Notes: generated by a model not told the origin, from the sequence alone. A stretch of DNA of 64,000 bases from Patescibacteria group bacterium (GCA_041649135.1 JBAZNQ010000002.1:41238-105237), one strand, 5' to 3'; positions 3,173 through 64,000 are shown, numbered from the stretch's first letter. Numbers and translations are program-made.

Positions 3173-3180
3173 CTAAATTT

Positions 3181-3396: not shown

Positions 3397-3403
3397 TTAA
3401 GGT

Positions 3404-7488: not shown

Positions 7489-7517
7489 AGAAACCGTTTT
7501 TCAATTATAATCAACCC

Positions 7518-7787: not shown

Positions 7788-7798
7788 CAGCTTCGGGC

Positions 7799-7869
7799 AG
7801 TCAAGAGGTTGTCAGAAGTGAATCCAGGTTGATCGCTAATGTGTATTCACTCCTGACCTAGCTCTTGTC
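7799..7869 (+). promoter_or_regulatory. Long interrupted stem-loop in the rpsO-pnp intergenic leader (candidate RNase III processing/autoregulatory hairpin)
   Basis: Three stem segments are complementary: GTCAAGAG/CTCTTG, GTCAG/CTGAC and GTGAAT/ATTCAC (~17 bp total). The position is analogous to the E. coli pnp leader hairpin. Confidence 0.5.
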
Positions 7870-7904
7870 TCTCGACTGGCTCCTGATTTCGACAGAAAGG
7901 TCCT

Positions 7905-41916: not shown

Positions 41917-42738
41917 ATGAAATACACTATTCGTCAGTTCAGAGCAGACTTTCCTGATGAGGATACCTGCCTAGAATATGTCTTTAAGAAGCGGTTTCCC
42001 GAAGCCGAGCAGTATTATCGGGTAAAGGGTCGGAAATGTTGGGCTAACCCTGCTGGTGAGCAGATACACCCTTTGGCTGGGACTATCTTTGCGAAGTCCA
42101 GTACCCCTCTAACCCTATGGTTCTATGCGATCTATATGTTCGCTCAAAGCAAAAATGGAGTAGCGGCTAAAGAGCTGGAGAGACAGTTAGGGGTTACTTA
42201 TAAATGTGCTTGGCGTATGGCGAGACAGATTCGCAAACTAATGTCTGATGACGGAGAGCCACTTACCGGAGAAGTTGAGGTAGATGAAACCTACATTGGT
42301 GGTAAAGCTCTCAACAATATGCGGAAGAAGAATATAACCATCAAAGACAAGGAGGTTTTGTTCGGTATGGTGGAACGAGGCGGTCGGGTAAAAGCTAAGC
42401 ACCTGATTAGCAACGGTTCTCGTCTAATCATTCCCCAGATTAAAAAGAACATCGAACCTAAGAGTACGATCTACAGCGATTCCTACAGAGCTTATGACAC
42501 CTTAACTCGGCGTGGGTATTCCCACAGTTCGGTAAATCATCAAGAACATTTTGTAGTTGAACTCACCCACACCAATACGATTGAAGGTTTTTGGTCGCAG
42601 TTAAAGCGGAGCATTAACGGGACTTATCATCATGTTTCGGCAAAACATCTTCAGCTTTACGCTGATGAGTTTGCTTTCCGCTATTCTTGGCGGAAGTCTT
42701 CTCCGGCGATGTTTGATCTGCTGTTGGCGAGGGTGTAA
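41917..42738 (+). CDS. IS1595-family (ISXO2-like) DDE transposase
   Basis: N-terminal transposase zinc-ribbon (CLEY...C), ISXO2-like core with TIEGFWSQLKRSINGTYHHVSAKHLQLYADEF. Confidence 0.9.
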   Translation: MKYTIRQFRADFPDEDTCLEYVFKKRFPEAEQYYRVKGRKCWANPAGEQIHPLAGTIFAKSSTPLTLWFYAIYMFAQSKNGVAAKELERQLGVTYKCAWRMARQIRKLMSDDGEPLTGEVEVDETYIGGKALNNMRKKNITIKDKEVLFGMVERGGRVKAKHLISNGSRLIIPQIKKNIEPKSTIYSDSYRAYDTLTRRGYSHSSVNHQEHFVVELTHTNTIEGFWSQLKRSINGTYHHVSAKHLQLYADEFAFRYSWRKSSPAMFDLLLARV

Positions 42739-44290: not shown

Positions 44291-44390
44291 ACAGACCAGT
44301 ATACACCTACGCTGTTCTACTTGTTGTCATGGTATCATCGCCGCGAATAATGGTTGACGTCCTGCTCCAGTCTGTCATAAATGTAGGCGC

Positions 44391-45393: not shown

Positions 45394-45467
45394 GCGGGTA
45401 TAGTTTAATGGTAGAATATCTCTTTTCCAAAGAGAATATACGGGTTCGATTCCCGTTACCCGCTCCA
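45394..45467 (+). tRNA. tRNA-Gly (anticodon UCC), CCA encoded
   Basis: Manual fold: acceptor GCGGGTA/TACCCGC, D-loop AATGGTAG, anticodon stem TCTCT/AGAGA with loop TTTCCAA (U33, anticodon TCC, A37), T-arm ACGGG-TTCGATT-CCCGT, discriminator T, then CCA. Confidence 0.85.
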
Positions 45468-46967
45468 GTCTGAACACAAGGCGCGCTCCGCGAGGAGCGC
45501 GTAAGGCGGAATCCAGTCCCAGAGCACTTTCCGAGAATTCAGAATCAGGTTCGAGCCAACCTCCGCGACAAAGTCGCGTAGTTCCAAGAGATCACCACCC
45601 GCAGCCGGGAGATTGCTCTCCCTGACTGCGTTAATCAGCTCCCGAAGAGGTTCGAGCCAGTACATCACCCCCTGACGGGCGATCTTGCCGAATTGGGTCT
45701 CAAGAGCTATCTTCGCATTCACCAACTTTCGCTTGCGGGCGGCATACTCCGCCCGATCAATTTCTCCATCTACATGCAAGTCATTCAATCTGCGCAGCTT
45801 CGCTGCGATCCCGGCAATTTCAATTTCAAGCTTGAGCGCTGGCGCATTCTCATTGGTTACGGCTTCAGCTTCCCAGTCGTCTAGCTGGCGGAGCATCGGG
45901 AAAACCCACTCCTCCGATTCTGGTAAGGCGATAGTCTTAAGCCGTTCCCACATCCTTGCTAATAAATCCTCTTCGCGCATAAACGGCTGGGAACATTTTA
46001 AAGTCCCGCCTTTTTTGGTGCAGCGATAGTAGCGCCAGACATGGTGGTTGCCGTTCTGCTGCGTCCTGACGTGTGTCTCGGCGGTAATCGAAGCTCCGCA
46101 TTCCCCACAGCGTATCAGCCCTAAGAATGGAAACTCTCTCTTGTAATGCGCTTGGGCTCTTCCTCGCTGAGCAAATACACGTTGCACCTTGTCCCAAAGT
46201 GCTTTGCTTACAACCGGTTCATGGCAACCCCTGTAAAGCTCGCCTTTCCACAAAATCGCCCCGTAGTAGAACGGATCAACCAGTATGCCCGACATGCTGG
46301 CTTTAGGGATCAAGGTCTCGTAGTAGCCCTTAAGCCCGTGTCCGTACATTACTTTCGCTAAGGCAAGCATTGAGTACTGGCCGGTGGCGTACAGCTCAAA
46401 CATCCGCTTGATTAACGGAAATCTGACAGGATCAGGAATAATCTCATGTGTTTTAGGATGATTGAGGTAGCCTAGTTTCGCTTTGCCGGGGTAGATGCCC
46501 TTCGCTAACTTAGATGCTAGACCACGGTGGACTAGCTCGCTCAGGTTATCAGTGTAGCGCTTGCTTTCGGCGAAAAAGAACGCCAGCATGAACTTGTCAG
46601 TACTCGTATTTTTGAAGGTAGAAGTAGCAGTCACAATCTGGTGCAATTGACCGGAATCGAGAAGCTCAATGATCCGCGCTCCATCCATAGCATTGCGGGC
46701 GATTCGTGAAGCATCATAAGCTAGCAGCGCGTTGGCTTTGCCCTGGCTGATGGAAGCAAGAACAGCATCAAACTGTGGCCTTCCTGGTTTCCTCGCACTC
46801 ATCGATTCCTCATACTGCTCTTCAAGACGCATTTGAAGGCTGCTAGCAGCTTTCAAAGCCCATTCGCGCTGGTCCGGGATGCTTTGTACTTGTCGCTCGT
46901 CGCTTTCAGTAGATTTACGGTAGTAAGCGACATATCTCAATTTGGTGTGCTGTAGTTTATTGCTCAT
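45456..46967 (-). CDS. Large serine recombinase (integrase), C-terminus overlapping the tRNA-Gly 3' end
   Basis: Resolvase/invertase N-domain with the catalytic serine region YYRKSTESDERQVQSIPDQ, a recombinase domain and a zinc ribbon (CGECGASI...C..C). The stop codon lies inside the tRNA acceptor stem. Confidence 0.9.
   Translation of the reverse strand: MSNKLQHTKLRYVAYYRKSTESDERQVQSIPDQREWALKAASSLQMRLEEQYEESMSARKPGRPQFDAVLASISQGKANALLAYDASRIARNAMDGARIIELLDSGQLHQIVTATSTFKNTSTDKFMLAFFFAESKRYTDNLSELVHRGLASKLAKGIYPGKAKLGYLNHPKTHEIIPDPVRFPLIKRMFELYATGQYSMLALAKVMYGHGLKGYYETLIPKASMSGILVDPFYYGAILWKGELYRGCHEPVVSKALWDKVQRVFAQRGRAQAHYKREFPFLGLIRCGECGASITAETHVRTQQNGNHHVWRYYRCTKKGGTLKCSQPFMREEDLLARMWERLKTIALPESEEWVFPMLRQLDDWEAEAVTNENAPALKLEIEIAGIAAKLRRLNDLHVDGEIDRAEYAARKRKLVNAKIALETQFGKIARQGVMYWLEPLRELINAVRESNLPAAGGDLLELRDFVAEVGSNLILNSRKVLWDWIPPYALLAERALCSDWSG
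45461..45539. repeat. Left copy of a perfect 79-bp inverted repeat (pairs with 47884..47962)
   Basis: CGCTCCAGTCTGAACACAAGGCGCGCTCCGCGAGGAGCGCGTAAGGCGGAATCCAGTCCCAGAGCACTTTCCGAGAATT is the exact reverse complement of 47884..47962. Its first 7 nt are the tRNA-Gly 3' end. Confidence 0.85.
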
Positions 46968-46969
46968 GG

Positions 46970-47830
46970 TTAACTCGGATTACTTGATGTACGATTTGCT
47001 GACTGACCACTTCGCGAAGTGGACACTTCCCATTTACCACCTTGAGCAACCACGCGGATACGACCGTCTCCACGGGTGGTAAGTACTCTACGGAATGTTC
47101 CGTCTTCGAGCTTTACACCGCGAGCGTGATCGCGGTACGGCGCGCGCTTGGTGAGTTGCCGTCCTTTGGCTTGCTCCTTGTCCGAGATCACGATGAGCTT
47201 AGGCGATAAGTACTGGAACGCTTCTTCGAGATAGCCGGTCGGCCTGCCGTGGTGTGAAGCTACCAGTAGGTTGGTCTCACGCAGCCAGTACTGGAACGCC
47301 TTGTTCTGTATGTGCAATCGCCAGCCACGAGCATTCAGGTCGCCAGGCAGACAGACGGTGAAGCCGTCCTCAGTGATAAACGAAACGAGCGACAGGTCGT
47401 TCACATCGCGAACACTGCCAAGCGGGAGATAGAACTGGTGTAACTCCATCGTCCTGAATTGGCGCGATGCTTCCATCGGCTGAAGCTCGGCGATGGTCTT
47501 GCTCTGCGACAAGTACGCTTTCTGCGCCTTGCTTAGCGTGTCCTTCAACTCGGACAATGTCTTCATAAACAACTGCGGGTGCTGCCAGACATGAACCGGC
47601 TGAAGCTTTTCAAGCACATTCGGCAAGTCAGCCAAGTGGTCTTGGTCTGGGTGGGTTAGTATCAGGTGGTGAAGTCTCCGGCGAGAACCGAAGCCCTGCT
47701 TAGCCAGCCCATCCGACGGCCGCCAGCCGGTCGTTGTGTTGTATCCGCAGTCTACTAGAACGGCTTCATTCTGCGCACTCAAGATGAGGACGCAGTCGCC
47801 ATGCTCAACATCGTAAATGCGGATTTCCAT
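46970..47830 (-). CDS. MBL-fold metallo-hydrolase
   Basis: HxHxDH motif (LTHPDQDHLADL) with additional His/Asp ligands; co-directional and tightly linked with the serine recombinase. Confidence 0.7.
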   Translation of the reverse strand: MEIRIYDVEHGDCVLILSAQNEAVLVDCGYNTTTGWRPSDGLAKQGFGSRRRLHHLILTHPDQDHLADLPNVLEKLQPVHVWQHPQLFMKTLSELKDTLSKAQKAYLSQSKTIAELQPMEASRQFRTMELHQFYLPLGSVRDVNDLSLVSFITEDGFTVCLPGDLNARGWRLHIQNKAFQYWLRETNLLVASHHGRPTGYLEEAFQYLSPKLIVISDKEQAKGRQLTKRAPYRDHARGVKLEDGTFRRVLTTRGDGRIRVVAQGGKWEVSTSRSGQSANRTSSNPS

Positions 47831-47883
47831 AACTCACACATTATCCGCCGGACACAAGGGCGGCGCAATCATTCCCTTCGCTC

Positions 47884-47962
47884 AATTCTCGGAAAGTGCT
47901 CTGGGACTGGATTCCGCCTTACGCGCTCCTCGCGGAGCGCGCCTTGTGTTCAGACTGGAGCG
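47884..47962. repeat. Right copy of the perfect 79-bp inverted repeat
   Basis: Exact reverse complement of 45461..45539 (checked base by base). Confidence 0.85.
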
Positions 47963-48254
47963 ATCTGCTCTCCAGGCTCCGAACTTACTTCGAGCATAAC
48001 ACATCGGAGAGGTAGGGATTCGAACTACCCCTATTTAAGCCCCTATGTACCGGTAAAAAGGGGTAACTCATAACGTCAACCCGCTTCCAGTCTAGGTTTC
48101 TCCTACATCGGAGATGTAGCTCTTGTAGCTGACACCGCCCCTGCCGCCGCTCGGAGAGCTGCGGGCGGGTCGGCGCATTCATATTCGACTGTGCGCGGGA
48201 ATTCAACATACTCAATAACAGGAACCAAAACACCTTCATCCGCATGATGAAAAC

Positions 48255-48290
48255 GGGCCGGAGAAGCGCGCTCCTCCGGCCGATGACGAT
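48255..48290 (-). terminator. Putative terminator of the minus-strand ZnR-membrane/GNAT/small-peptide operon
   Basis: Near-palindrome CCGGAGAAGCGCGCTCCTCCGG, followed on the minus strand by CCCGTTTTCAT. Confidence 0.4.
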
Positions 48291-48309
48291 GAGACACAAT
48301 CGCACTGCG

Positions 48310-48498
48310 CTAGAAGTGCCCGGACTCCTTCAACTGGCTCTCGCCGGTCTCAGTGTCGATCTCGTAGACCGTGTGGTAGGGCATTCCCAGCGCTGAGCTG
48401 TCGTGCCGTACTTCCACCGTGCCGCTACCCGTATTTGTCACGGTATCGCCAGCACTACTCGCGCTACCGTAGTCGCCTCCGGAGCTGCCGCCTGACAT
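48310..48498 (-). CDS. Small Gly/Ser-rich protein (62 aa), translationally coupled to the upstream GNAT gene
   Basis: Strong SD GGAGGTGA 6 nt before the ATG. MSGGSSGGDYGSASSAGDTVTNTGSGTVEVRHDSSALGMPYHTVYEIDTETGESQLKESGHF has no known motif. Confidence 0.4.
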   Translation of the reverse strand: MSGGSSGGDYGSASSAGDTVTNTGSGTVEVRHDSSALGMPYHTVYEIDTETGESQLKESGHF

Positions 48499-48504
48499 TC
48501 GCTT

Positions 48505-49116
48505 TCACCTCCCTTCCCGCAGATTGCTGTGAATGCTCGCTGCCGCCAGCTCGGGCCGGGCAGTGGTGTCGAGTGACCGTTGCGTTTCGTCGAACTGCTC
48601 CCGGCTGACGGCATAGAGCAGCAGGTCGTGGTAGCCGCCCCGCCAGTACAGGTGCTCGCGCAGCACCGCTTCCGGACGGATACCCGCCGCCTGCAAGGTG
48701 GCGTTGGATTCTTGGTTGAAGCCATATACCTCGGCATATAGCTTGCGCAGGGGGTAGTTATCGAAAAGCCAAGCCGCGAAGCTCCGGGCGGCCCAGCTGC
48801 CCAGGCCACGCCGGCGGTTGGCCGCTTCGATGAACACCGCCAGGTACGCCCAGCCATGCAGTGAGTTGTAGTTGTAGGAGTAGACCGTGCCCACGGCTTT
48901 GCCTTCCGCACGCACCATGAAGCGGACGTGAGTGGACGCCTCGGTTTCCTGGAACTCCCGTGCGAACTGCTCGGGATTGCGCGGCGCGCGACGGGGGTAC
49001 CAAAGCGATAACGTTGCCAGATCGTTGCGCCAAGCATGCAGCACTGGCCGGTCGGCTTCACACATCGGACACAGCTCCGCTGGCGTGGGGCTGTTAGGTT
49101 GGGGGCTGCTACTCAT
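48505..49116 (-). CDS. GNAT-family N-acetyltransferase (RimJ/RimL-like)
   Basis: Acetyl-CoA-binding motif RRRGLGSWAARSF within a GNAT fold of ~200 aa. Confidence 0.85.
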   Translation of the reverse strand: MSSSPQPNSPTPAELCPMCEADRPVLHAWRNDLATLSLWYPRRAPRNPEQFAREFQETEASTHVRFMVRAEGKAVGTVYSYNYNSLHGWAYLAVFIEAANRRRGLGSWAARSFAAWLFDNYPLRKLYAEVYGFNQESNATLQAAGIRPEAVLREHLYWRGGYHDLLLYAVSREQFDETQRSLDTTARPELAAASIHSNLREGR

Positions 49117-49623
49117 TTAGTTCAGCTCCCGCAGACGCTTGATGTCCATGATGATGTTGATGGGCAGGATGATGAACGCGAACGGCGCGACGAGTACTAT
49201 GCCGCAGATGAAGATGATGATCCAGTTGTTGACTGTGGTGAAGTACATCAGGCCGGTGATATCCGACAGCTTGTCCATCAGCTTGCGGAAGTTGACGAAT
49301 GACCAGATGATGGTTGGAATGACCAGCAGGCTGATGAAGGCCGCTCCGTGCGGCGGCTCTCCGGTGCTGGCACTGGCGACGGCCACTAGGGCGATGATGC
49401 CGATGAGTAACGTCCCCAGCACGCTGCCACTAATGACCAGCTGGCGGATGATCGCCCCGCGCTCCGTCGCCAGCGCGTCCTGGTATTCACCGGCCATGGT
49501 GGTATAGCAGTGTTCGCAGATCGGCTGGCCGAAACGCTCGCTGCACTCGCGGCATAGCCCGCGTCCGCAGCCTTGGCTGCACATACCAACAGCCCGCTCC
49601 AGCGAATGCTTGTAGCAGTTCAT
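49117..49623 (-). CDS. Zinc-ribbon membrane protein (hypothetical)
   Basis: N-terminal Cys cluster (CSQGCGRGLCRECSERFGQPICEHC) followed by 3-4 TM helices. First gene of a three-gene minus-strand operon. Confidence 0.5.
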   Translation of the reverse strand: MNCYKHSLERAVGMCSQGCGRGLCRECSERFGQPICEHCYTTMAGEYQDALATERGAIIRQLVISGSVLGTLLIGIIALVAVASASTGEPPHGAAFISLLVIPTIIWSFVNFRKLMDKLSDITGLMYFTTVNNWIIIFICGIVLVAPFAFIILPINIIMDIKRLRELN

Positions 49624-49719
49624 GTAGCACTCCCTAGTTGTTGCTGCGCATATTATAACATGCGTTTAGCAATATGTGCTGTACTTACTGCATGCTCCGT
49701 TTCCTGATACCTATTAACT

Positions 49720-49962
49720 GTGGAGCTGGCTCAGCAAGTAGGGATGAACATCCGCGTTCTACGGGTACGGCGCAGGCTGTCGCAAGAGAAGCTGGCCGAG
49801 CGGATGGGCATCGAGCGGCAGCAGGTCAGCGACATCGAGTTGGGCAAGCGCAATCTGACACTGCTGACCGTTACGCGAATCTGCCAAGCCTTAAACTGCC
49901 AGCCATCTGAGTTGTTCGCGGACACGTCGATAGAGCTAAGTCAGGGAAAGCGTAGTCGATAG
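49720..49962 (+). CDS. XRE-family helix-turn-helix transcriptional regulator
   Basis: LRVRRRLSQEKLAERMGIERQQVSDIELGKRNLTLLTVTRICQALNCQPSELF is a Cro/C1-type HTH; divergent from the GNAT operon. Confidence 0.8.
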   Translation: MELAQQVGMNIRVLRVRRRLSQEKLAERMGIERQQVSDIELGKRNLTLLTVTRICQALNCQPSELFADTSIELSQGKRSR

Positions 49963-49985
49963 ATTTCGGCAGTAGCCGTATATCA

Positions 49986-51653
49986 GTGGGGGATCTTGTG
50001 TTTGAGCATTCACCTTCTGTGTGGGATGTAGTAAGTGCTATCGCCAGCAGCCTGATGCTGTGGGCTTTGGTGATTCTGCTGCTGCTGGCCGTGCGCCTTT
50101 GGTTGACCAAGTTCATCTACTACATGCAGGACTACACCACCGGCTTTCTCAAAGTACGTGGCTTGGTAGCTGCCGCACAGCGTGAAGACGCATGGAAACT
50201 CAGCGAGCATCGTCCCGTTGGCAAGTATGCCGACTGCTCACTGACGCTCGGACTAACAGAGAGCAGCGGCTACTCACAGCCATTTGTGGTTCCCGGCGAT
50301 TACCGCACTACTCATATGTATGTGGTGGGCGCTTCCGGCTCCGGCAAGTCGTCGTTGCTGAAGAACCTGATCCATCAGGACATCCGCAGCGGGATGGGAC
50401 TGTGTGTGATCGACCCGCACGGCGATCTGATCTATGACACGGTGGCGCAGCTGGGCAAGCGAGCGGAGCAAACCGTGATGCTGGACTTGGCGGATACGGA
50501 ACACATGCTCGCGTACAATCCGCTTGAGCGCAGGCAAGGTGTGCTGGTTGCCGAGCAGGTGGCGAAGCTGATACTGGCGTTTCAGCGGATTTGGTCTGAC
50601 AGCTGGGGGTCTAGGATGGAAGACATCCTGCGCCATACGCTGACGCTGCTTGTCGAGCAGGGATACACGCTGGCGGAGTTCGAGCGCGTGCTGACCGACG
50701 CGGACTTCCGCGAGATGTTGGTTGAAGCATCGATGATTGACCAAACGCGCGAGTACTTCCTTGGACGCTACAACACATGGAACAGCAAGGAACGCCAGCT
50801 CTTCAGCGAGTCCTCTCTTAACAAGGTCTCGGCGTTCATGGCCGATCCTCGCATTGGCGTGAGACTCGGCCAGACTAAGTCCGGCTTCAACCTAAAGGAC
50901 ATCATGGACACCGGTGGGATACTGCTGGCGAATCTCGCGAAAGGCAAGCTGGCGGGTAACGCAGACCTATTCGGCGCGCTGCTGATGGCTGACATTGAAA
51001 TGAGCTTCCTTTCCCGCCCGCCAAACCAGCGCAGTCCGTTCGCGCTGTATGTCGATGAGTTTCAGAACATCGCAACGGAGAGTTTCGAGACGGTGCTGGC
51101 GGAAGCGCGCAAGTTTGGCCTGTGCTTAACGATGGCGCACCAATCCCTGAAGCAGGTTGATGACACGCTGGCTTCGCTCATCCTCGGCAACGCGCAGACG
51201 CAGGTGTACTTCCGTGTTGGCAGGCAAGATGCGGAGCGGTTGGCGAAAGAGTCTGCCAACATTATCGCGCAGCTGATCGAGCAAGAGGAAGAGCCGCAAT
51301 TGATGCAGGAACGGGAGCGGAAGTTCTCCATGTCCGAGTTATGGGAAGCGGCTTTTCACCAGCTTGTCCGGCTTGAGCCGCGCCGGGCTTATGTGATGGT
51401 CAAGGGCGCGATGGAGCATCCGGAGCTGGTTCGCACGATAGATAATCCTGTGGTCAAGAGCGTGAAGTTCCCTTACAGCGCAGCCTACGCCAAGCTGGAA
51501 GTGTTTGAGGCGGCGCTGAAACAGCGGGCGAAAGACATCATGCATGCAGTGGATGAGTACGTGAAGCAGAGGCAAGCGAAACAAGGCAAGCCAATTGAAG
51601 CCAGTCCTGGCGCGGATGAGGAAGTACCGGCAGCATTGGACTTCTTGAAGTAG
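49986..51653 (+). CDS. Type IV coupling-protein-like ATPase (TraD/TraG/VirD4 family; TraM-recognition/DUF87-like)
   Basis: N-terminal TM helix, Walker A VVGASGSGKSSLL, Walker B ALYVDEFQNI and a C-terminal TraD/TraG-like region (KFGLCLTMAHQSLKQV). Confidence 0.7.
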   Translation: MGDLVFEHSPSVWDVVSAIASSLMLWALVILLLLAVRLWLTKFIYYMQDYTTGFLKVRGLVAAAQREDAWKLSEHRPVGKYADCSLTLGLTESSGYSQPFVVPGDYRTTHMYVVGASGSGKSSLLKNLIHQDIRSGMGLCVIDPHGDLIYDTVAQLGKRAEQTVMLDLADTEHMLAYNPLERRQGVLVAEQVAKLILAFQRIWSDSWGSRMEDILRHTLTLLVEQGYTLAEFERVLTDADFREMLVEASMIDQTREYFLGRYNTWNSKERQLFSESSLNKVSAFMADPRIGVRLGQTKSGFNLKDIMDTGGILLANLAKGKLAGNADLFGALLMADIEMSFLSRPPNQRSPFALYVDEFQNIATESFETVLAEARKFGLCLTMAHQSLKQVDDTLASLILGNAQTQVYFRVGRQDAERLAKESANIIAQLIEQEEEPQLMQERERKFSMSELWEAAFHQLVRLEPRRAYVMVKGAMEHPELVRTIDNPVVKSVKFPYSAAYAKLEVFEAALKQRAKDIMHAVDEYVKQRQAKQGKPIEASPGADEEVPAALDFLK

Positions 51654-51686
51654 GTTAGAAGCTGTACAGTAAAAGCAGCTTTATGT

Positions 51687-52004
51687 ATGAACCGCAAGCA
51701 GTTCAACCAACACATCAATAGCACATTGAAGGCTCTCCGCGAAGTAGAAAGCCGTGATTGGTATAGCCTACTGCTTGCCTCTGCCAACCCGATTGATGAA
51801 GTTGGCGAAGCGGTGAAGCTGATTAAGGTTGCTGCGGGATACAAGCAGTTCGTGCGGGAATGCCCAGATACCGGTAGTGAGACAAGACGCGAAGCCTACC
51901 TGCTTCTGCGCGCCGCTTACGATGGCGGAGTTTTCCCGCCGCGCCAGCATGTGAGCAAGGCGCAGTTTAAACGCCTGCTCGACATGCACCTATCGCGGCT
52001 CTAG
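51687..52004 (+). CDS. Hypothetical protein
   Basis: 105 aa, high GC, co-directional with the island genes. Confidence 0.4.
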   Translation: MNRKQFNQHINSTLKALREVESRDWYSLLLASANPIDEVGEAVKLIKVAAGYKQFVRECPDTGSETRREAYLLLRAAYDGGVFPPRQHVSKAQFKRLLDMHLSRL

Positions 52005-52320
52005 ATGAGTTCGCGCTCTGCCAGAACTCAACCTAATTCACCGTGAAAGGCGAAAGGTGCAAGAGCGCCCAAAGACGAGTCCTACTAGCGTAAGTAGGAC
52101 AGGGTTTGAACATGACGCCCCCACGTCCATCTTGTGTTTCGGCCGCTAGACCACCTGAGACGGCTACACGCGGTAGCTTCTAGACGGGTGGGCATATTCC
52201 CTTGCTCCCCGCGCCCGGCAGAGCGTAGCTCAAGCATACGCTCTGTTGACAGTTTCGCGAAAACGCTAGATCCAAAACAGACGGCTTAAGTTTCTATCCA
52301 CATGATAGACTAGCAGCGCT

Positions 52321-53247
52321 GTGAATGTATACAAAGCAAAGGCTGGGCGCTTCCTGTTGTATCTCGATATTCTAGGGTTCAAGCAACTAATCCGGCACCG
52401 CAGCCCTGAAGAGGTCTACGCCACAGTAGATCAGATGTTGAGAGAGACCGCTGAGCGAGAACGCGGTATACCGGATTTCACAACGTTATATTTCTCAGAC
52501 ACGATTGTCTTTTTTCAAAAGTCGGTCGGATACGGATCTTGGGCCTTTGGAGACATTTATTCATTAACTGCAATGATCTGGTCAGCACTGGCAGCCAGAA
52601 AAATACCGACTCGCGGAGCAATCGCCTTTGGAGACTTCCATGCCGAGCCAGATTCCCGTGGGCAGCACACGGTATTCTTCGGTGAGGCGTTGATAGAAGC
52701 TTACGAAACTGAAAAACTGGAAAACTGGATCGGAGTAACTCTATGTCCAAGCGCTGTGGAAATCGTTAATTACGTAGAGCCTAATCGACTTACGCAAATG
52801 CTAAATGAGCCAGGCGCTTTCGATTACGTGGATCAGATTGAGAAAGAGCACGCAGCCTATACTCCGGCTGTCTTTGTCGAGTATTTTAAGAAGGCACAGC
52901 CAACAGTACTGCATAGAACTGCTTGCCGTCGAGTGCTCCTCAATCCACTGTACTTTCTGCATCAAACTTGGTTCGCAGATGTCTACGATGAGGGAGTAGT
53001 GAGTTACCCCCTTCATCATGATAGTGTGCATTTCGCTCATGATATTCTCTCCCTGAAGTTCATCCTACAAACCGCAGAGGAACCAGATGGAGCTGATCCA
53101 GAGCGGAACAAAGTCCTCGCCAAGTATAGAAATACAGCAGCGCTCCTCCGCCAGATGTTTCCGTCAGAGTGTATCGAGTGGGCCTTGAAGCTCTATGAAA
53201 CTTTCCCGGACCAGGCAGACGAAGGGTGGGGCGACTGGAAGAAATGA
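52321..53247 (+). CDS. Class III nucleotidyl cyclase-like (AC/GC/GGDEF palm) domain protein with unknown C-terminal domain
   Basis: LYLDILGF matches the FADIVGFT metal-binding motif; FSDTIVFF lies 43 residues later, matching the second metal Asp (GDxxxxF); RGAIAFGDF matches the RIGIHxG arginine. GTG start. The assignment rests on motifs only. Confidence 0.45.
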   Translation: MNVYKAKAGRFLLYLDILGFKQLIRHRSPEEVYATVDQMLRETAERERGIPDFTTLYFSDTIVFFQKSVGYGSWAFGDIYSLTAMIWSALAARKIPTRGAIAFGDFHAEPDSRGQHTVFFGEALIEAYETEKLENWIGVTLCPSAVEIVNYVEPNRLTQMLNEPGAFDYVDQIEKEHAAYTPAVFVEYFKKAQPTVLHRTACRRVLLNPLYFLHQTWFADVYDEGVVSYPLHHDSVHFAHDILSLKFILQTAEEPDGADPERNKVLAKYRNTAALLRQMFPSECIEWALKLYETFPDQADEGWGDWKK

Positions 53248-53416
53248 TTAGCCTACTAATGACTGTGGACAATTTCACGGAAACGGTAGAACTACAATAG
53301 AAAGCACCGGTTTCTATCCACAACGAGCATACTAGGTAGGCAGAATCCTCTTCGCTCATTAACAACGTTAACTTCAACTCCCCGATGCGCGCAATACCGC
53401 CGGAGGCGGCACTGCG

Positions 53417-53761
53417 TTGCGCATCAAGGACATCAAGAGTCTTGTTTGGCTCTATCGCTGGTACAACGGACGTTCCCAGCGTCTTCAAGAAACCCATCAA
53501 GTTCATCTTGCCGCTGTTTCGCAACTAGTCGTTGATGAGCTTGGCGGCACACCGCAGGGCAGCACGGAAGTCTGCCTGTGCGGATTTTCTCTTATCGTAA
53601 AGGCCAGCCCTGACGGGCTGGCGATTGAGTCCATTACCCCGCCTACATTTATCAACGGCGTTCAGCTGATGTTGTTTGACGCCGATTTGGATGATGACTA
53701 CCTGGCGGGCCAGTACTGTGAATCCACTGAAGAGGTGCAACGTGAAGTTGCTTACCGATGA
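53417..53761 (+). CDS. Hypothetical protein
   Basis: 114 aa ORF in the island; no motif recognised. Confidence 0.35.
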   Translation: MRIKDIKSLVWLYRWYNGRSQRLQETHQVHLAAVSQLVVDELGGTPQGSTEVCLCGFSLIVKASPDGLAIESITPPTFINGVQLMLFDADLDDDYLAGQYCESTEEVQREVAYR

Positions 53762-54095
53762 GCTTCTGAAGAAGCTAGAAGCTCAAGATCCCTATGGTCC
53801 GACTGGACCAGGACGGGAACTCACCAAAGAAGAAGAGCAGGTCGTCTGCAAGTTCTTCACGCCGGATGCTAACTGGACGTGGTACGCGGTTTCCGCGTCC
53901 CGCGATCCTGAAACCGGCGATGTGCAGTTCTTCGGTTTGGTTGACGGTCTCGAACTGGAACTCGGCTACTTCTGGTTATCCGAGTTGACTAAGGTTCGGG
54001 GCATACTCGGCTTGCCGGTGGAGCGCGATCTCTACTGGCAGCCGCAGCCGCTCTTCAAGCTGATGGAGGAACTGGAACATGCAGCAGTCAGCTGA
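53742..54095 (+). CDS. DUF2958-family protein (common on conjugative elements)
   Basis: KLLTDELLKKLE...PDANWTWYAVSASRDPETGDVQFFGLVDGLELELGYFWLSELTKVRGILGLPVERDLYW matches the DUF2958 consensus. GTG start with SD GAGGTG 5 nt upstream. Confidence 0.6.
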   Translation: MKLLTDELLKKLEAQDPYGPTGPGRELTKEEEQVVCKFFTPDANWTWYAVSASRDPETGDVQFFGLVDGLELELGYFWLSELTKVRGILGLPVERDLYWQPQPLFKLMEELEHAAVS

Positions 54096-54588
54096 AGGAG
54101 CCGTAAGAATCGCGATCCTGAGTGAACCGAGTGCCTTTGGTCTCTCCCTTGCTGACGTCAATCCGATGCTCCTATACCAGCTCCGCAAAGACGATCCAGA
54201 ATACAGCGAGCACGGAACGACGGAGCTGTGGGAGCTCTGCTTTGATGCGGTGAATGAGTTGCTGCACGCTAAGGTCATCGAAGTATTTGCTGGCGCGAAC
54301 CGGCGCAAGGATGAGCTGGTGCAGCAAGTAGCTGTGGCTGAAACTCAGCCGAAAGAGCAACCTGCACCGGCAAAGCCTAACGGCAAGGCCAAGAGTAGCG
54401 GCAAAGAAGCTGAAGCCAGCAATGGTAATAGCAACCGTGGCGGTAAGCTGACGGTAAAGCAGCTGCGCTATCTCGGTTTCCTGCATCGGAAAGTCGGCGA
54501 AGAGCCGGACTACATTGTCATCTCAGCCCTGACGCAGAGTCAGGCCACAATGCGTATCAAGGAGTTGGAGCAACGCGTTAATGGGTGA
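54079..54588 (+). CDS. Hypothetical protein with Lys/Ala/Pro-rich linker
   Basis: 169 aa; central low-complexity segment QPKEQPAPAKPNGKAKSSGKEAEASNGNSN. Confidence 0.4.
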   Translation: MQQSAEGAVRIAILSEPSAFGLSLADVNPMLLYQLRKDDPEYSEHGTTELWELCFDAVNELLHAKVIEVFAGANRRKDELVQQVAVAETQPKEQPAPAKPNGKAKSSGKEAEASNGNSNRGGKLTVKQLRYLGFLHRKVGEEPDYIVISALTQSQATMRIKELEQRVNG

Positions 54589-54998
54589 TGCGCCCTCTGC
54601 CATTCCCGCAGACGGGTTAGATTTCCCAAGGGATTTCTGCAAGCTAACCGGCACGTCGTTCCCGCGACGGGCTGGCTTGGCTTGGGAACGACTAATAAAT
54701 AACAATAGCGTGATTGGGTTACTTGTGGTATGCTTTACTCGTGGATAACTTGTTGATAATCCACACAATTGCGTCCCGACGAGATTCTGCTGCGCCTGAC
54801 GACGCTCGTATGTGTTATACTTTGTACCCAGCTCAGCGGATGAATGAGCTGGGGGAGAATGGCGGAAAAGCTGAATACATGGGGCGTAGCTCATGCGAGT
54901 CTGGTGGAATCTCGCGGATGCTACAAAGGCACCTTGGCAAAGGCAAAAAGCACCCCCGCTCGTTAAAACAAGCGGGGGCCATTGCACGGTAGGTTACC

Positions 54999-55100
54999 CT
55001 ACCGTTTCCGTTTATTCAGTCCTTGCCATACCAGAATGATCTGGCAGGCTAGACCGATAACGGCAACGATGAGTCTTATCCACTCAAAGTGGCCGTTCAT
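54999..55100 (-). CDS. Candidate 31-aa hydrophobic peptide (type I toxin-like); unannotated short ORF
   Basis: SD GGAGGT 7 nt upstream of the ATG; MNGHFEWIRLIVAVIGLACQIILVWQGLNKRKR has a TM helix and a basic tail. A hairpin ACGGTAGG-ttac-CCTACCGT lies immediately downstream. Confidence 0.3.
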   Translation of the reverse strand: MNGHFEWIRLIVAVIGLACQIILVWQGLNKRKR

Positions 55101-55375
55101 GACGGTACCTCCTTTTGTGGCTCTACCACGAGGCCCACAGGGGGTACCGTCCCCATTTATTTGTTTTAAAAAACCCGCTCGTGCGGGTTGTTCTGTTTAT
55201 CTACTCGGGGGAAACTGCAAGTGTTTGAGCTTCACTAGCTTAAGCCACCGTTCAGCTTCACGTATACTCATACAGCCTCCACCGTTGAAAGTATACCACA
55301 CTTTTGGTCGAGGGCAAGATCGGGGGAACTGGTTCATAGCTAAAACCCGCGCTGAATAGCATCTCGCTTCCCGGG

Positions 55376-56377
55376 ATGGATCAGCATGGCTTATGTACAA
55401 TGGTACTGAGACCAAACCATATGAGTCCACGTAAACCAAAGACAGACCAGAAACGGCTACCGCGAACAAAGCGAGCCAAGCACCCGCCTGCTTTTCGGAT
55501 TACCAAGCGCGATGTAGAGCTGGTGCGCGCTATCCTGAATTACCGCTTCCTCTACACTAAGCACGTGTTCTGGCTGTTGCCGAAAGCCAGCCAGCAGAAC
55601 CTGACCGTGCGGTTGCGGCACCTATACCATCATGGCTACTTGAATCGCGTTTTGCTTCCTGACTCCAGTACCAATGAGCAGCTGGTCTACGCGCCGACCG
55701 AAAAGGGCGCGGTGATGGTTGCGGATGCGGACGGTATCAGCCGAGATGAAGTTGAATGGCACCGCTACATGAACATCGTCTCGCCCTCGCATATCCGCCA
55801 CCTGCTCTCAATCAACGACGTGCTGGTGTCTTATGAGATTGCGCTAGGGCAAGCTAAGGCTCAAGGCAAGATAGCGGATTACAAGGTAGTGCGCGGGGAG
55901 CCGCGCAAACACAAGCTACCGGTGCTGCTTAGAGACAAGGACGGCAAACGGCGTGAGGTTGCCAATGTGCCGGACGCTTATCTTGCGGTAGTGTTTGACA
56001 GCCACAATTACGGCGTGTTCTTTGTGGAAGTGGACAGGGCGACGATGGGGTCGTCGCGCTGGGCAGAGAAGATCGAGGTCTATCGCGAGTACCCGCGCAC
56101 CCAGCACTTCAAGGACAAGTTTAAGGCGCAATGGTGTATAGTGTTAACCGTCGCGCCGAGCGAAAAGCGGGTCATGTCGCTAGCGGAGAAAACCGCCGGC
56201 ATGGGGGGTCAGCGGGGATTCTGGTATGCGCTCGCTGACCAGCTAACACCGGATACCGCTTGCGGACCCGTTTGGATCAGAGCGTCGGACTTATTTGGTG
56301 TTCGTAATGAAAGGGTGGTCAAGCTGAGCGAAATCAGCAGGGCTATCAGATCGGGATTGCCCGATGCGCTAAGGTAG
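55376..56377 (+). CDS. Replication-relaxation family protein (plasmid/ICE replication initiator-like, winged helix)
   Basis: ITKRDVELVRAILNYRFLYTKHVFWLL...QNLTVRLRHLYHHGYLNRV matches the N-terminal wHTH of the replication-relaxation family. The true start may be an internal Met (MSPRKPK). Confidence 0.6.
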   Translation: MDQHGLCTMVLRPNHMSPRKPKTDQKRLPRTKRAKHPPAFRITKRDVELVRAILNYRFLYTKHVFWLLPKASQQNLTVRLRHLYHHGYLNRVLLPDSSTNEQLVYAPTEKGAVMVADADGISRDEVEWHRYMNIVSPSHIRHLLSINDVLVSYEIALGQAKAQGKIADYKVVRGEPRKHKLPVLLRDKDGKRREVANVPDAYLAVVFDSHNYGVFFVEVDRATMGSSRWAEKIEVYREYPRTQHFKDKFKAQWCIVLTVAPSEKRVMSLAEKTAGMGGQRGFWYALADQLTPDTACGPVWIRASDLFGVRNERVVKLSEISRAIRSGLPDALR

Positions 56378-56395
56378 CGCAACGCGGGAGGCAGT

Positions 56396-56737
56396 ATGGC
56401 TGAGCCATTGGAGCACCTGAAAGGTGCCAGCGATAGCAAGCGTGGTTTCTGGAACTGGGCTGTGTACTGGTGGGGAGAGCTCGTCAATTCGCGCTTCTTC
56501 CTCTACCTCTACGACTACACCTGCATGCGCATTCCCTTGACCAAGCGCTACCGAGAGCTGACGCTGGATCAGCTGACATGCCGGTTCTGTGGGAATAGCA
56601 TTGACCTGCTGGGCGCTTGGCGCTGCGAGTGCGGCTACTCCCGCCCTGGCAACTACTTCGGGCGCTGCCCGAAGTGCCTGAACTACCCGCGCTACATTGA
56701 CTGCCCAGCTTGCAGGTTTACTATGGACGTGAGGTGA
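56396..56737 (+). CDS. Cys-rich zinc-finger protein (hypothetical)
   Basis: CRFCG...CECG...CPKC...CPACRF gives four CxxC pairs. Confidence 0.4.
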   Translation: MAEPLEHLKGASDSKRGFWNWAVYWWGELVNSRFFLYLYDYTCMRIPLTKRYRELTLDQLTCRFCGNSIDLLGAWRCECGYSRPGNYFGRCPKCLNYPRYIDCPACRFTMDVR

Positions 56738-56744
56738 ATTTGTA

Positions 56745-59015: not shown

Positions 59016-59083
59016 GTGGCACGGTGTCGGAGAGCGTTAATCGTAATTGGCAGTCGCCTGTTCGTCCGGCATAATGGAGTCGT

Positions 59084-60958: not shown

Positions 60959-60968
60959 GGCTAGCGCT

Positions 60969-63725: not shown

Positions 63726-63773
63726 CGTCTCTAGCCACAAGTATGTAAGAAGGAGGGCTTACTTACAATAGAA

Positions 63774-64000
63774 ATGATTAAGTATATTAAGAAAGGACTA
63801 ACATCATTTTGGCGTCTTGTGCCAGGACACATGCAATGGTGGTGTCTTTGGTTAGGACATAGCAAGTATAATGTTGGAGTTTCCGGCATAGTGTCTGACT
63901 CAAACGGAAAGGTACTGCTAATCAACCATGTTTTTAGAAGTCGGTTTTCTTGGGGATTCCCATCGGGTTGGATGAAGTCTGGCGAAACATTTGAGGATAC
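63774..64000 (+). CDS. NUDIX hydrolase, 3'-partial (runs off the window end)
   Basis: ATG at 63774; MIKYIKKGL...VGVSGIVSDSNGKVLLINHV...SWGFPSGWMKSGETFEDT begins a Nudix fold (GX5EX7REUXEEXGU box just starting). AT-rich, like the core genome. Confidence 0.5.
   Translation, partial: MIKYIKKGLTSFWRLVPGHMQWWCLWLGHSKYNVGVSGIVSDSNGKVLLINHVFRSRFSWGFPSGWMKSGETFED

What the first reader, a model, noticed from the sequence alone, without database searches (positions are those of the whole stretch)
45456..47962. Serine recombinase + MBL hydrolase cassette enclosed by perfect 79-bp inverted repeats abutting the tRNA
The 45461..45539 and 47884..47962 segments are exact reverse complements over 79 bp, read directly from the sequence. 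They enclose only two co-directional genes, a large serine recombinase and an MBL-fold protein. The recombinase's last ~26 codons are encoded inside the left repeat and run through the tRNA acceptor/CCA. Large serine recombinases normally act on short att sites without long terminal repeats, so a 2.5-kb unit with long perfect repeats is atypical. It could be an invertible segment, a serine-recombinase-driven transposon-like unit, or a recent duplication-inversion. The perfect identity implies recent formation or active homogenisation.
Basis: seen in the sequence. Interest (0 to 1): 0.7.

Follow-up and report, generated by a model that had tools for sequence, protein, structure and literature searches.

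The report
Recombinase island with mirrored attachment site
The 79-bp inverted repeat is real, but it is not a small transposon: it is half of a mirror-image internal copy of the attachment site of a ~23-kb serine-recombinase island inserted at the 3' end of a tRNA gene, and I found this layout, with no published description, in about 70 related islands, mostly in Patescibacteria.

Summary
The repeat is confirmed: 45461-45539 and 47884-47962 are exact reverse complements (82 nt with one mismatch). It encloses a large serine recombinase (LSR) gene and a ComEC-type MBL gene and overlaps the last 7 nt of tRNA-Gly.

It is not an autonomous cassette, a one-off duplication or an assembly artefact. 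The outer arm is the tRNA-proximal end of a roughly 22.7-kb mobilisable island. The inner arm, together with the adjacent 47963-48150, is a second repeat whose partner lies about 4 kb beyond the window. Together they form an inverted copy (R*) of the junction that the island's two ends would make on excision (attP).

Of 83 loci encoding related LSRs, 70 have the same repeat (median 99 nt, median identity 100%). In 49 of 62 assessable loci it abuts a convergent tRNA 3' end, and 23 of 29 loci with 8-10 kb of upstream flank have the second repeat. Only 1 of 59 more distant LSR loci has a repeat.

Arms evolve in concert: 98-100% identical within an element, 55-94% between elements. No flipped isomer was seen.

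The function of R* is inferred, not shown. Most likely it is a cis-acting LSR-binding and expression platform.

The parts
45394..45467 (+). tRNA-Gly(TCC), the integration target (attB right half). Its last 7 nt (45461-45467) lie inside the repeat arm and are supplied by the island.
   Evidence: ARAGORN; Rfam RF00005, 72.4 bits. The T-loop TCGAAC motif sits 5 nt closer to the junction than the matching motif in IR2-in.
45461..45542 (.). IR1 outer arm ('a'): the tRNA-proximal end of the island (attR-type junction, P' side). It also encodes the last ~27 codons of the LSR.
   Evidence: The homologous arm abuts a convergent tRNA 3' end in 49 of 62 assessable related loci.
45456..46967 (-). Large serine recombinase gene (503 aa). 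Catalytic motif Y15-x-R17-K18-S19. The invariant Trp501 codon TGG is the complement of the tRNA CCA end.
   Evidence: Pfam PF00239 1e-19, PF07508 2.6e-10, PF13408 6.9e-12. Invariant columns in alignment A1. PDB relatives: A118 and SPbeta integrases.
46970..47830 (-). Stand-alone ComEC/Rec2-type MBL-fold (probable nuclease) gene, 2 nt upstream of the LSR start codon. Motif THPDQDH.
   Evidence: Pfam Lactamase_B 3.6e-9. TIGR00361 ComEC_Rec2 6e-10, below its cut-off. PDB 9ic4 'Competence protein' 2.5e-5 and ComEC 30bt. PADLOC PDC-M48B 2e-43.
47881..47962 (.). IR1 inner arm ('a-prime'): inverted copy of the island's tRNA-proximal end, including the 7 nt complementary to the tRNA 3' end.
47963..48150 (.). 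IR2 inner arm ('b-prime'): inverted copy of the island's far end. It carries the P-type half-site motif CCGAAC at 47980-47985. Together with 47881-47962 it forms R*, the internal inverted attP-type copy.
   Evidence: Contigs that are 100% identical to window 50969-64000 end in an inverted copy of 48010-48150 (L083 17014-17154; L084 15619-15698). Motif spacing. The block is conserved in L001 and L002.
45482..45501 (-). GC-rich hairpin (CGCGCTCC-TCGC-GGAGCGCG) followed by a T-rich tail, inside the arm. It is a terminator-like element at the end of the LSR gene. The mirror copy lies at 47922-47941 on the + strand.
   Evidence: The hairpin is kept by different, complementary sequence in L004 (arm sequences).
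48256..48281 (-). Strong terminator-like hairpin ending the GNAT-side cargo transcript just before R*. The MBL-LSR promoter should therefore lie between 47831 and 48255.
   Evidence: 11-bp stem, 8 G-C pairs, T-tail. The promoter placement is inference.
48151..64000 (.). Cargo of the island, which runs on ~4 kb past the window end. Genes: GNAT 48505-49116(-); 168-aa membrane protein 49117-49623(-); HTH 49720-49962; T4 coupling protein 49986-51653; DUF2958 53676-54095; Replic_Relax relaxase 55376-56377; PDC-S06/AAA_13 56745-59015; type III Mod 59084-60958 and Res 60969-63725. Beyond the window: NUDIX, GSCFA, EPSP synthase, ThsB-like TIR, and the IR2 far arm.
   Evidence: Pfam; gene tables of identical contigs; NCBIfam; PADLOC. 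GC is 0.50-0.61 here against 0.42-0.50 in the host DNA to the left.

Best explanation
The repeat belongs to a ~22.7-kb integrative, mobilisable island. The island entered the 3' end of tRNA-Gly by ordinary LSR attP x attB recombination.

Outer arm. The arm at 45461-45542 is the island's tRNA-proximal end. It replaces the last 7 nt of the tRNA and encodes the LSR C-terminus and its terminator hairpin.

Inner arm. The arm at 47881-47962 is fused to a second repeat arm (47963-48150), whose partner is the island's far end. Together they are R*, an internal, inverted, near-perfect copy of the junction (attP) that the two island ends form on excision. The island is therefore: tRNA | a - LSR - MBL - a'.b' - cargo - b | host.

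This layout is the hallmark of a whole clade of tRNA-3'-end-targeting LSR elements.

Shown here: the anatomy, its conservation, its restriction to this clade, the B-type versus P-type half-site spacing, concerted evolution of the arms, and a fixed orientation.

Inferred, about 40% for this part:
- R* is not a flip switch. It is a second, always-intact LSR-binding attP-type site.
- It sits at the head of the recombinase operon and of the cargo, and serves as operator/promoter platform and possibly as an architectural site that holds the two ends.
- It stays identical to the real ends by gene conversion centred on the crossover core.
- It probably cannot recombine with the real ends, because LSRs synapse two attP sites only non-productively.
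For: Anatomy in the window.

Far arm of the second repeat. Contigs identical to the cargo end in an inverted copy of 48010-48150. I predicted this before looking (note; confirmed).

Family survey.
- 70 of 83 related loci have the LSR-flanking repeat: median 99 nt, 36 pairs at 100% identity, 54 at 98% or more.
- 49 of 62 assessable loci have a convergent tRNA whose 3' end overlaps the arm by a median of 6 nt, across 11 named tRNA amino-acid families.
- 'Repeat-less' loci mostly have decayed arms (L007 84%, L040 85%, L081 87%).

Second repeat abutting the first: about 23 of 29 loci with 8-10 kb of upstream flank.

Junction logic: the reverse complement of J2 equals the left half of J3, plus the core, plus the right half of J1.

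Half-site rule. The YNGAAY motif in the IR2 arm lies exactly 5 nt farther from the core than the tRNA T-loop TCGAAC in 16 of 17 loci, and in the window. This is the published attP/attB DBD2 offset (PMC11722253).

Tandem array. In L058 a second element integrated, with the same polarity, into the a.c.tRNA junction of the first.

Outgroup. Only 1 of 59 more distant LSR loci has a flanking repeat.

Concerted evolution. Mismatches are confined to the inner ends; only 5 of 75 IR1 mismatches lie within 30 nt of the core.

The shortest arms (31-36 nt) still span one half-site.

Platform role. In one subfamily a sigma-70-type promoter (TTGACA-17-TATAAT-like) spans the core of R* and points into the cargo in 9 of 34 loci, against 1.8 expected. 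A conserved leader follows, ending at the cargo ATG.

Non-productive attP-attP synapsis by SPbeta integrase: PMC11722253.
Against: - No function of R* was tested.
- No sigma-70-like promoter was found in the window's own R*.
- The far junction (J1) of the window's island was not seen. The contigs stop inside the repeat, and the 218-kb source contig could not be read.
- An operator needs only ~50 bp, so arms of 75-435 nt need a separate explanation. I invoke gene conversion.
- An excised circle would carry two identical attP copies in opposite orientation, so integration should yield flipped isomers half the time. None was seen in 49 loci, and this model does not explain that without extra assumptions (selection or occlusion).
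- No excised circular form was observed anywhere.
- The survey rests on consensus assemblies and MAGs.
Confidence: 0.6

Rival explanations
1. Invertible module (flip-flop). The LSR, or homologous recombination across the arms, inverts the LSR-MBL segment and/or the cargo segment. This would resemble Hin/Gin/Cin segments or the two isomers of the yeast 2-micron plasmid, switching expression or, in the excised circle, amplifying copy number.
For: - Long perfect inverted repeats with the crossover core at their outer edges, and cores in inverted orientation.
- Many assemblies break at the arms.
- One 3.5-kb JGI contig (L087) joins the LSR module to a 90%-identical homologue of the DNA next to the far arm. 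This is as expected if the cargo were flipped.
- Concerted evolution needs recombination between the arms.
Against: - 0 flipped LSR orientations among 49 loci with an identified tRNA. The one candidate, L080, is an ordinary tRNA followed by a terminator and a promoter.
- About 70 contigs run through both arms in one orientation.
- Three independent assemblies of this element agree, although the 79-nt arm is shorter than the k-mer of 141 that the contig names imply.
- Cargo genes mostly keep one orientation.
- L087 may be a chimera at a 188-nt repeat.
- LSRs do not normally recombine attP with attP or attR (PMC11722253).
- The minimal elements carry no replication genes for a 2-micron-type role.
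Confidence: 0.13
2. Single-strand splint. When the island travels as linear single-stranded DNA (natural transformation or relaxase-driven transfer), both ends anneal side by side onto R*. This recreates a nicked duplex attP, so flap trimming (perhaps by the ComEC-like MBL nuclease) and ligation could circularise the element without an excision factor.
For: - R* is exactly the reverse complement of the two ends joined, and the polarity is right for ligation.
- Identity is near-perfect over 75-435 nt.
- The hosts are Patescibacteria.
- A ComEC-type nuclease domain is co-transcribed with the LSR in this subfamily.
- The minimal elements carry no obvious directionality factor.
Against: - Wholly inferential.
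- Mismatches between arms show no bias toward G.T pairs on either strand (26 vs 30, p=0.69).
- Arms as short as 31-36 nt exist.
- The MBL gene is present in only 4 of 83 loci.
- It does not explain the fixed orientation either.
Confidence: 0.1
3. The 2.5-kb LSR+MBL segment with 79-bp terminal inverted repeats is itself the mobile unit, and the cargo is a separate unit with its own terminal repeats. In that reading each unit would have a palindromic attachment site.
For: - Each compartment is bounded by its own perfect inverted repeat.
- Cargo is highly variable between elements that share nearly identical arms and framework.
- The outermost dinucleotide of the arm is the palindrome CG in the window, L001 and L002.
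Against: - Only two copies of the arm in 64 kb.
- The junction next to the inner arm always carries the b-type arm; an LSR unit with host DNA on both sides was never seen.
- The outer junctions J1 and J3 share the core in direct orientation, as expected for one element.
- The tandem array shows whole composites integrating.
- MBL-LSR synteny with the T4CP/relaxase cargo recurs in five further loci (L001 and L002, the no-DNA contigs, and the same element in L086).
Confidence: 0.06
4. Static accident or artefact: a recent local duplication-inversion, or a mis-assembly at a shared k-mer, with no function.
For: Perfect identity is what a very recent event or a collapsed repeat would give.
Against: - The same structure appears in three independent assemblies.
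- It appears in 70 of 83 loci from many phyla, with arm length conserved within subfamilies and arm sequence co-varying with the target tRNA.
- It is essentially absent from the outgroup.
Confidence: 0.01

Closest known systems
Large serine recombinase integrative elements (phage A118/SPbeta/phiC31-type integrases; SCCmec CcrAB; Tn4451 TnpX; fdxN-element XisF)
   Same: The three-domain recombinase (Resolvase + Recombinase + Zn ribbon) with a Ser nucleophile. Site-specific insertion. Half-site motifs offset by 5 bp between the target and the element site. The recombinase gene sits next to the attachment site. The best sequence matches are CcrB/CcrA/XisF (all below their family cut-offs) and the A118 and SPbeta structures.
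   Different: As far as I know, and in the searched literature, none of these carries a long, perfect, inverted internal copy of its own attP. The target here is the extreme 3' end of many different tRNA genes, with the recombinase ORF ending in the complement of CCA. No directionality factor was identified.
Serine-invertase segments (Salmonella Hin/hix, Mu Gin/gix, P1 Cin/cix with 0.6-kb inverted repeats)
   Same: A serine recombinase gene lies inside or beside a segment bounded by inverted repeats, with the crossover sites at the outer edges of the repeats.
   Different: Those enzymes are small (~190 aa) invertases acting on 26-bp sites with an enhancer, and both orientations coexist. Here the enzyme is a 503-aa integrase-type LSR, the arms are 79-188 nt, and only one orientation is seen.
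Yeast 2-micron plasmid (FLP/FRT inside 599-bp inverted repeats)
   Same: If the island excises, the circle would have two long inverted repeats, each holding the recombinase target, separating a recombinase compartment from a second compartment (inferred).
   Different: FLP is a tyrosine recombinase that recombines identical sites freely and gives two equimolar isomers. No circle, no isomers and, in the minimal elements, no replication genes were seen here.
tRNA-gene genomic islands and cargo shuttles (Islander-type tDNA islands; tycheposons of Prochlorococcus)
   Same: Site-specific insertion at tRNA genes with restoration of the tRNA end, tandem accretion, and highly variable cargo (PMC4383910; bioRxiv 10.1101/2020.12.28.424599).
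   Different: Those use tyrosine integrases almost exclusively and are bounded by direct repeats of the tRNA 3' part. They are not described with internal inverted attP copies.
Integrons (layout analogy only)
   Same: In the L022-like subfamily the recombinase gene, an adjacent attachment-type site and an outward promoter with a conserved leader feed a slot that holds unrelated single genes.
   Different: IntI is a tyrosine recombinase. Integron cassettes carry attC sites and form arrays. Nothing here shows cassette capture at R*.

Membership tests
Large serine recombinase (integrase-type) family | N-terminal resolvase catalytic domain with a conserved Ser nucleophile | tested here: met
   PF00239 1e-19 over residues 13-157. 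Y15, R17, K18 and S19 are invariant in 26 relatives.
Large serine recombinase (integrase-type) family | C-terminal recombinase domain plus zinc-ribbon domain | tested here: met
   PF07508 2.6e-10 (184-268) and PF13408 6.9e-12 (280-344). Matches the A118 integrase C-terminal domain structure 4KIS/6DNW.
Large serine recombinase (integrase-type) family | Coiled-coil motif inserted in the zinc-ribbon domain, which controls directionality | tested here: inconclusive
   Only a weak SHOCT-like match at 390-415. No structure was predicted.
Large serine recombinase (integrase-type) family | attB and attP half-sites differ by a ~5-bp shift of the outer (DBD2) motif | tested here: met
   A 5-nt offset between the tRNA T-loop motif and the IR2-arm motif in 16 of 17 loci and in the window. 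The rule is as stated in PMC11722253.
Large serine recombinase (integrase-type) family | Catalysis of attP x attB recombination with a 2-bp crossover; excision needs a directionality factor | not testable with these tools
   Junction cores of 2-9 nt are shared by J1, J2 and J3 (L051 core = GG). No factor was identified.
Integrative mobilisable element at a tRNA gene | Inserted between a tRNA 3' end and host DNA, with the tRNA end restored and composition differing from the host | tested here: met
   The tRNA-Gly is intact. There is a GC step at ~45.5 kb. The far junction was seen only in relatives and not for the window.
Integrative mobilisable element at a tRNA gene | Relaxase and coupling protein but no mating-pair apparatus | tested here: met
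   TrwB/TraG-type T4CP at 49986-51653. Replic_Relax relaxase at 55376-56377. No T4SS genes appear in the gene tables.
Serine-invertase invertible segment (Hin/Gin/Cin type) | Small invertase with a C-terminal HTH acting on ~26-bp inverted sites | tested here: not met
   The enzyme is a 503-aa LSR and the arms are 79-162 nt.
Serine-invertase invertible segment (Hin/Gin/Cin type) | Both orientations present in populations or among relatives | tested here: not met
   0 flipped among 49 loci with a tRNA, and three assemblies of this element agree. Read-level data were not available.
Transposon/IS bounded by terminal inverted repeats | Both repeat ends border target (host) DNA, and the unit recurs at other sites | tested here: not met
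   The inner arm borders IR2 and the cargo of the same island. Only two arm copies occur in the window.
2-micron-type inverted-repeat plasmid | Circular replicon with two recombinase-target repeats and two equimolar isomers | not tested
   No circular form was found: no terminal overlaps in any contig. The topology is inferred only.

The most novel reading that the evidence does not exclude
R* is a DNA-encoded partner of the recombinase rather than a passive copy. It would be an intact attP kept inside the integrated island that does one or more of three things:
(a) substitutes for a protein directionality factor by bridging the two locked ends, or splints single-stranded ends for circularisation;
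(b) traps incoming sister elements in dead-end attP-attP synapses (immunity);
(c) serves as the fixed promoter/attachment platform of an integron-like, LSR-based gene-cargo system spread through Patescibacteria and neighbouring phyla.
Probability: 0.2. Interest if true: 0.85.

Novelty: new variant of a known kind. Interest (0 to 1): 0.68.

Why it matters
Large serine recombinases are prized genome-engineering tools. Their appeal is that they need only two short sites and, for reversal, one protein factor.

This clade differs. Hundreds of natural elements keep a long, perfectly homogenised, inverted copy of their own attP next to the recombinase gene. That points to an unrecognised layer of control (regulation, directionality, immunity or single-strand circularisation) that can be tested with a few plasmids.

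The result also matters for three practical reasons.
- It defines an abundant class of small cargo-carrying islands in Patescibacteria, a group whose routes of gene exchange are poorly known.
- It explains a recurrent cause of contig breaks next to tRNA genes in their assemblies.
- It offers natural LSRs aimed at the conserved T-arm/CCA end of many different tRNA genes.

Tried and rejected
1. A degenerate 19-mer from the IR2 arm, scanned against metagenome contigs, gave 32 hits.
2. L080 looked like a flipped isomer because a tRNA lies upstream of the LSR start. I rejected it: the tRNA is followed by its own terminator and a promoter, with no arm.
3. I tested whether the arms act as an RNA or single-strand stem. 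There is no G.T versus A.C strand bias (26 vs 30) and transversions are common. Rfam finds nothing but the tRNA.
4. No sigma-70 promoter was found in the window's R*. The core-spanning promoter is confined to another subfamily.
5. The 14-nt direct repeat at 44361-44374 / 45459-45472 appears to be a chance match on inspection.
6. I could not reach the island's far junction. The 218-kb source contig was never returned. 10-kb flanks for L001 and L002 (L182, L183) did not reach a far arm.
7. A search with the C-terminal 75 aa to size the clade gave only 52 hits, many of them gene fragments, so it is not a usable census.
8. PADLOC: the LSR matches nothing, and no partner for the MBL's PDC-M48B model was found among the window ORFs.
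9. No contig showed the terminal overlaps of a circular form.
10. Six literature searches found no description of this architecture.
Full report
OBSERVATION

The two segments are exact reverse complements over 79 nt (45461-45539 and 47884-47962), extending to 82 nt with one mismatch. A 48-nt stretch of the arm occurs only at these two places in the window, and never in 100 shuffles.

tRNA-Gly(TCC) occupies 45394-45467, so the outer arm contains the last 7 nt of the tRNA.

Between the arms lie two co-directional genes on the - strand.
- A 503-aa large serine recombinase (LSR) at 45456-46967, with Resolvase, Recombinase and Zn_ribbon_recom domains.
- A 286-aa MBL-fold protein at 46970-47830, 2 nt upstream of the LSR start.

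About 27 LSR codons lie in the outer arm. The last codon and the stop lie in the tRNA.

The identical arrangement is present in two other assemblies, ENA ERZ27247363 and JGI 3300037067.

SURROUNDINGS

To the right of the tRNA the GC content rises from 0.42-0.50 to 0.50-0.61. The genes there are those of a mobilisable island:
- GNAT, an HTH regulator, a TrwB/TraG-type coupling protein and DUF2958;
- a Replic_Relax relaxase;
- a PDC-S06/AAA_13 protein and a type III restriction-modification pair.

No T4SS genes are present. The source organism is a Patescibacteria MAG (name attached to P0001).

RELATIVES

LSRs only ~51% identical to this one (L001, L002) have the same ~78-81-nt, 99-100% identical repeat around MBL+LSR. 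The outer arm again overlaps the 3' end of a convergent tRNA, here tRNA-Pro.

I then collected 80 loci from one genome per species and searched each for inverted repeats. With the window, L001 and L002 this makes 83 loci.
- 70 of 83 have a repeat with one arm just upstream of the LSR (or of genes preceding it) and the other over the LSR 3' end. Median arm length is 99 nt (range 36-162). Identity is 100% in 36 pairs and 98% or more in 54.
- Of the 13 without a repeat, three have decayed arms of 84-87% identity, one has a partial arm cut by the contig end, and seven are cut by a contig end too close to the gene or lack the flank needed to judge. Only two (L014, L079) have enough flank and no repeat.
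- In 49 of 62 loci with enough flank, a convergent tRNA 3' end overlaps the arm by a median of 6 nt, across 11 named tRNA amino-acid families.
- As a control, 59 loci of more distant LSRs from viral contigs, similar only over residues ~10-350, have a flanking repeat once. That one is the only locus with a full-length match and an identity (35%) in the clade's range.

The repeat is therefore a clade-specific, ancient and maintained feature.

THE SECOND REPEAT AND WHAT THE PAIR MEANS

In about 23 of 29 loci with 8-10 kb of upstream flank, a second repeat pair (31-435 nt) abuts the first and shares 0-9 nt with it.

Call the outer arm of the first pair 'a', the arm of the second pair 'b', and the shared bases 'c'. 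The three junctions then read:
- J1 = host | c.b
- J2 = b'.c'.a'
- J3 = a.c | tRNA

The reverse complement of J2 is a.c.b. This is exactly the site that joining the two ends would create, i.e. attP. Each element therefore carries an internal inverted copy (R*) of its own attP region.

For the window, this predicted that 47963 onward would recur, inverted, at the far end of the cargo. I wrote the prediction down. It was confirmed: contigs 100% identical to window 50969-64000 end in an inverted copy of 48010-48150 (L083 17014-17154; L084). That places the far arm near 68.0-68.2 kb on the window's scale.

The contigs stop inside the arm, so the last ~47 nt and the host junction were not seen. By arithmetic, the 20,113-nt k141 contig has 141 nt of this repeat at each end; this is inference.

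WHICH SITE IS WHICH

The b arm carries a YNGAAY motif exactly 5 nt farther from the core than the T-loop TCGAAC of the tRNA, in 16 of 17 loci (the remaining one is 4 nt). In the window, TCGAAC starts at +14 from the terminal CG on the tRNA side, and CCGAAC at +19 in 47963-48150.

This matches the published rule that the outer (DBD2) motif lies 5 bp closer to the centre in attB than in attP half-sites (PMC11722253). The tRNA is therefore the B-type half, and the b arm, and so R*, is P-type.

L058 shows a second element integrated, with the same polarity, into the a.c.tRNA junction of a first element. The junction beside the LSR always carries a b-type arm, and never host DNA.

Together these support ordinary attP x attB integration of the whole composite. 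They argue against two independent repeat-bounded units.

HOMOGENISATION

Arms are 98-100% identical within an element. Between elements identity is 55-94%, with a median of 69% in one subfamily and 87% in the MBL subfamily. Both arms change together with the target tRNA...ACTGGAGCG in the window versus ...GGTCG in L001 and L002.

Across 98 repeat pairs (11,109 columns) there are 117 mismatches and 19 gaps. They pile up at the inner ends. For the first repeat, 64 of 75 mismatches lie in the inner third and 5 within 30 nt of the core. Identity is therefore best where the recombinase binds.

A hairpin inside the arm is preserved by different, complementary sequence in L004.

NOT A SWITCH, AS FAR AS ASSEMBLIES CAN SHOW

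No locus has the LSR start facing the tRNA. The one candidate, L080, fails on inspection. About 70 contigs pass through both arms in one orientation. Three assemblies of this element agree.

The only hint of an alternative arrangement is L087. There the unchanged LSR module continues into a 90%-identical homologue of the DNA next to the far arm. This is either a flipped cargo in a related variant or a chimera at a 188-nt repeat.

WHAT R* DOES

This part is inference.

In one subfamility-level comparison, the L022-like subfamily, the core of R* is spanned by a TTGACA-17-TATAAT-like promoter pointing into the cargo. It is found in 9 of 34 loci at one fixed position, against 1.8 expected anywhere. 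A conserved ~85-nt leader follows, ending at the cargo ATG, while the ORF itself is unrelated between elements. In that subfamily R* is therefore an expression platform that integration cannot split.

The window's R* shows no sigma-70 match. However, it lies between a strong terminator at 48256-48281 and the MBL start, where the operon's promoter must be.

I take as most likely (about 40%) that R* is a cis-acting LSR-bound site combining operator/promoter and perhaps architectural roles, kept identical to the ends by gene conversion. SPbeta integrase is reported to synapse two attP sites without recombining them. That would make R* inert for exchange yet able to bind.

Rivals are a flip-flop or 2-micron-like role, a splint for single-stranded circularisation, and independent transposon-like units. 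They are listed with their evidence in the rival explanations.

UNEXPLAINED

An excised circle would hold two identical attP copies in opposite orientation. Flipped integrants are nevertheless absent.

THE MBL GENE

It is a stand-alone ComEC/Rec2-type MBL domain with motif THPDQDH. The supporting matches are TIGR00361 at 6e-10 (below its cut-off), PDB 9ic4 and 30bt, and PADLOC candidate PDC-M48B at 2e-43.

It occurs in 4 of the 83 loci, and also on two JGI contigs for which only gene tables were available. It is better conserved (70-92% identity) than the LSR beside it (43-51%).

Other subfamilies carry other genes in the same compartment: a type II R-M system in L123, and five small genes in L057. 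The MBL gene may therefore be cargo rather than a recombination cofactor.

COMPARISON AND NOVELTY

The enzyme and the integration chemistry are those of known LSR elements. The conserved internal inverted attP copy with concerted evolution was not found in six literature searches, and I know of no description.

I file it as a new variant of a known kind.

Noticed in passing
L022, L024, L036, L038, L042, L053, L058, L060 (e.g. L053 8701-9884): Elements that share nearly identical IR2 arms also share a conserved ~85-nt leader (ending ...TTTTTTAATCA(T)ATG) on the R* side and a conserved ~30-nt block (GACAATTTCAAGTTTTTCTTTGGCGGCAA) on the far side. The single ORF between them is unrelated from element to element (methyltransferase, oxidoreductase, secreted proteins). 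This looks like a fixed cargo 'slot' driven by a promoter across the attachment core, an integron-like layout.
   Followed up: partly
L058 5607-6796: Tandem array. The first element's LSR-side arm is joined through the core to a different b-type arm. An HTH gene follows, then another b'.c'.a' junction and the start of a second LSR gene. The tRNA-side junction of one element can therefore serve as the target for another.
   Followed up: partly
L087 1-693 versus L083 16853-17013: In JGI sample 3300037067 an LSR/MBL/IR1/IR2 block 99.97% identical to the window continues into a 90%-identical homologue of the DNA that lies next to the far arm in the window's island. This is either a cargo inversion or exchange in a close variant, or a chimeric join at the 188-nt repeat.
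   Followed up: partly
window 45459-45467; alignment A1: The invariant Trp501 codon TGG of the LSR is the complement of the tRNA CCA end. The LSR reading frame ends in tRNA-derived bases when integrated (…WSG*). By translation of 47954 onward, it would end 17 residues later (…WSDLLSRLRTYFEHNTSER*) when the ends are joined. The extreme C-terminus of the recombinase therefore depends on the state of the island. A cited paper title (Abe 2021, in PMC11722253) links the extreme C-terminus of SprA to directionality.
   Followed up: no
L006, L015-L018, L020, L026-L029, L032, L033, L035, L041, L048, L050, L064, L078, L082, L083, L084, L086: Many public contigs begin or end at, or within ~50-140 nt of, the repeat arms. 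The C-terminal-tail search returned many short protein fragments. These islands are a systematic cause of assembly breaks next to tRNA genes in Patescibacteria MAGs.
   Followed up: partly
window 56745-63725; L083 13284-16389: The cargo is rich in defence-type genes: PDC-S06 (AAA_13/PrrC-like, 2e-259), type III Mod and Res and, beyond the window, a ThsB-like TIR protein (1e-73). It also includes apparent housekeeping-type genes (NUDIX, GSCFA, EPSP synthase) inside the island boundaries.
   Followed up: partly
window 52243-52302 and 53263-53322: A 60-nt direct repeat (75% identical; CTGTTGACAGTTTCGCGAAAACG...TTTCTATCCACA) brackets the 308-aa ORF 52321-53247, which has no family match. It lies between the coupling-protein and relaxase genes. 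It could be a regulatory or transfer-origin element.
   Followed up: no
window 41917-42738: An IS1595-family (DDE_Tnp_IS1595) transposase gene lies in the host DNA 2.7 kb left of the tRNA. It is unrelated to the island.
   Followed up: no
window 45482-45501 / 47922-47941; L004 arms: The hairpin inside the arm overlaps the conserved peptide PY(A/E)(L/I)LA(E/S)R. It is kept as a stem by different sequence in L004 (AAATCCTCGC-TTC-GCGAGGAGGATTT). This suggests selection on the structure (a terminator or a binding site) as well as on the peptide.
   Followed up: partly
L183 (=L002 locus) 1891-8342: In this relative, ~8 kb of RHS/DUF6531/YD-shell toxin-like genes lie between R* and the coupling-protein gene, and the MBL ORF is called shorter (209 aa). 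The cargo compartment next to R* therefore accepts large insertions.
   Followed up: no
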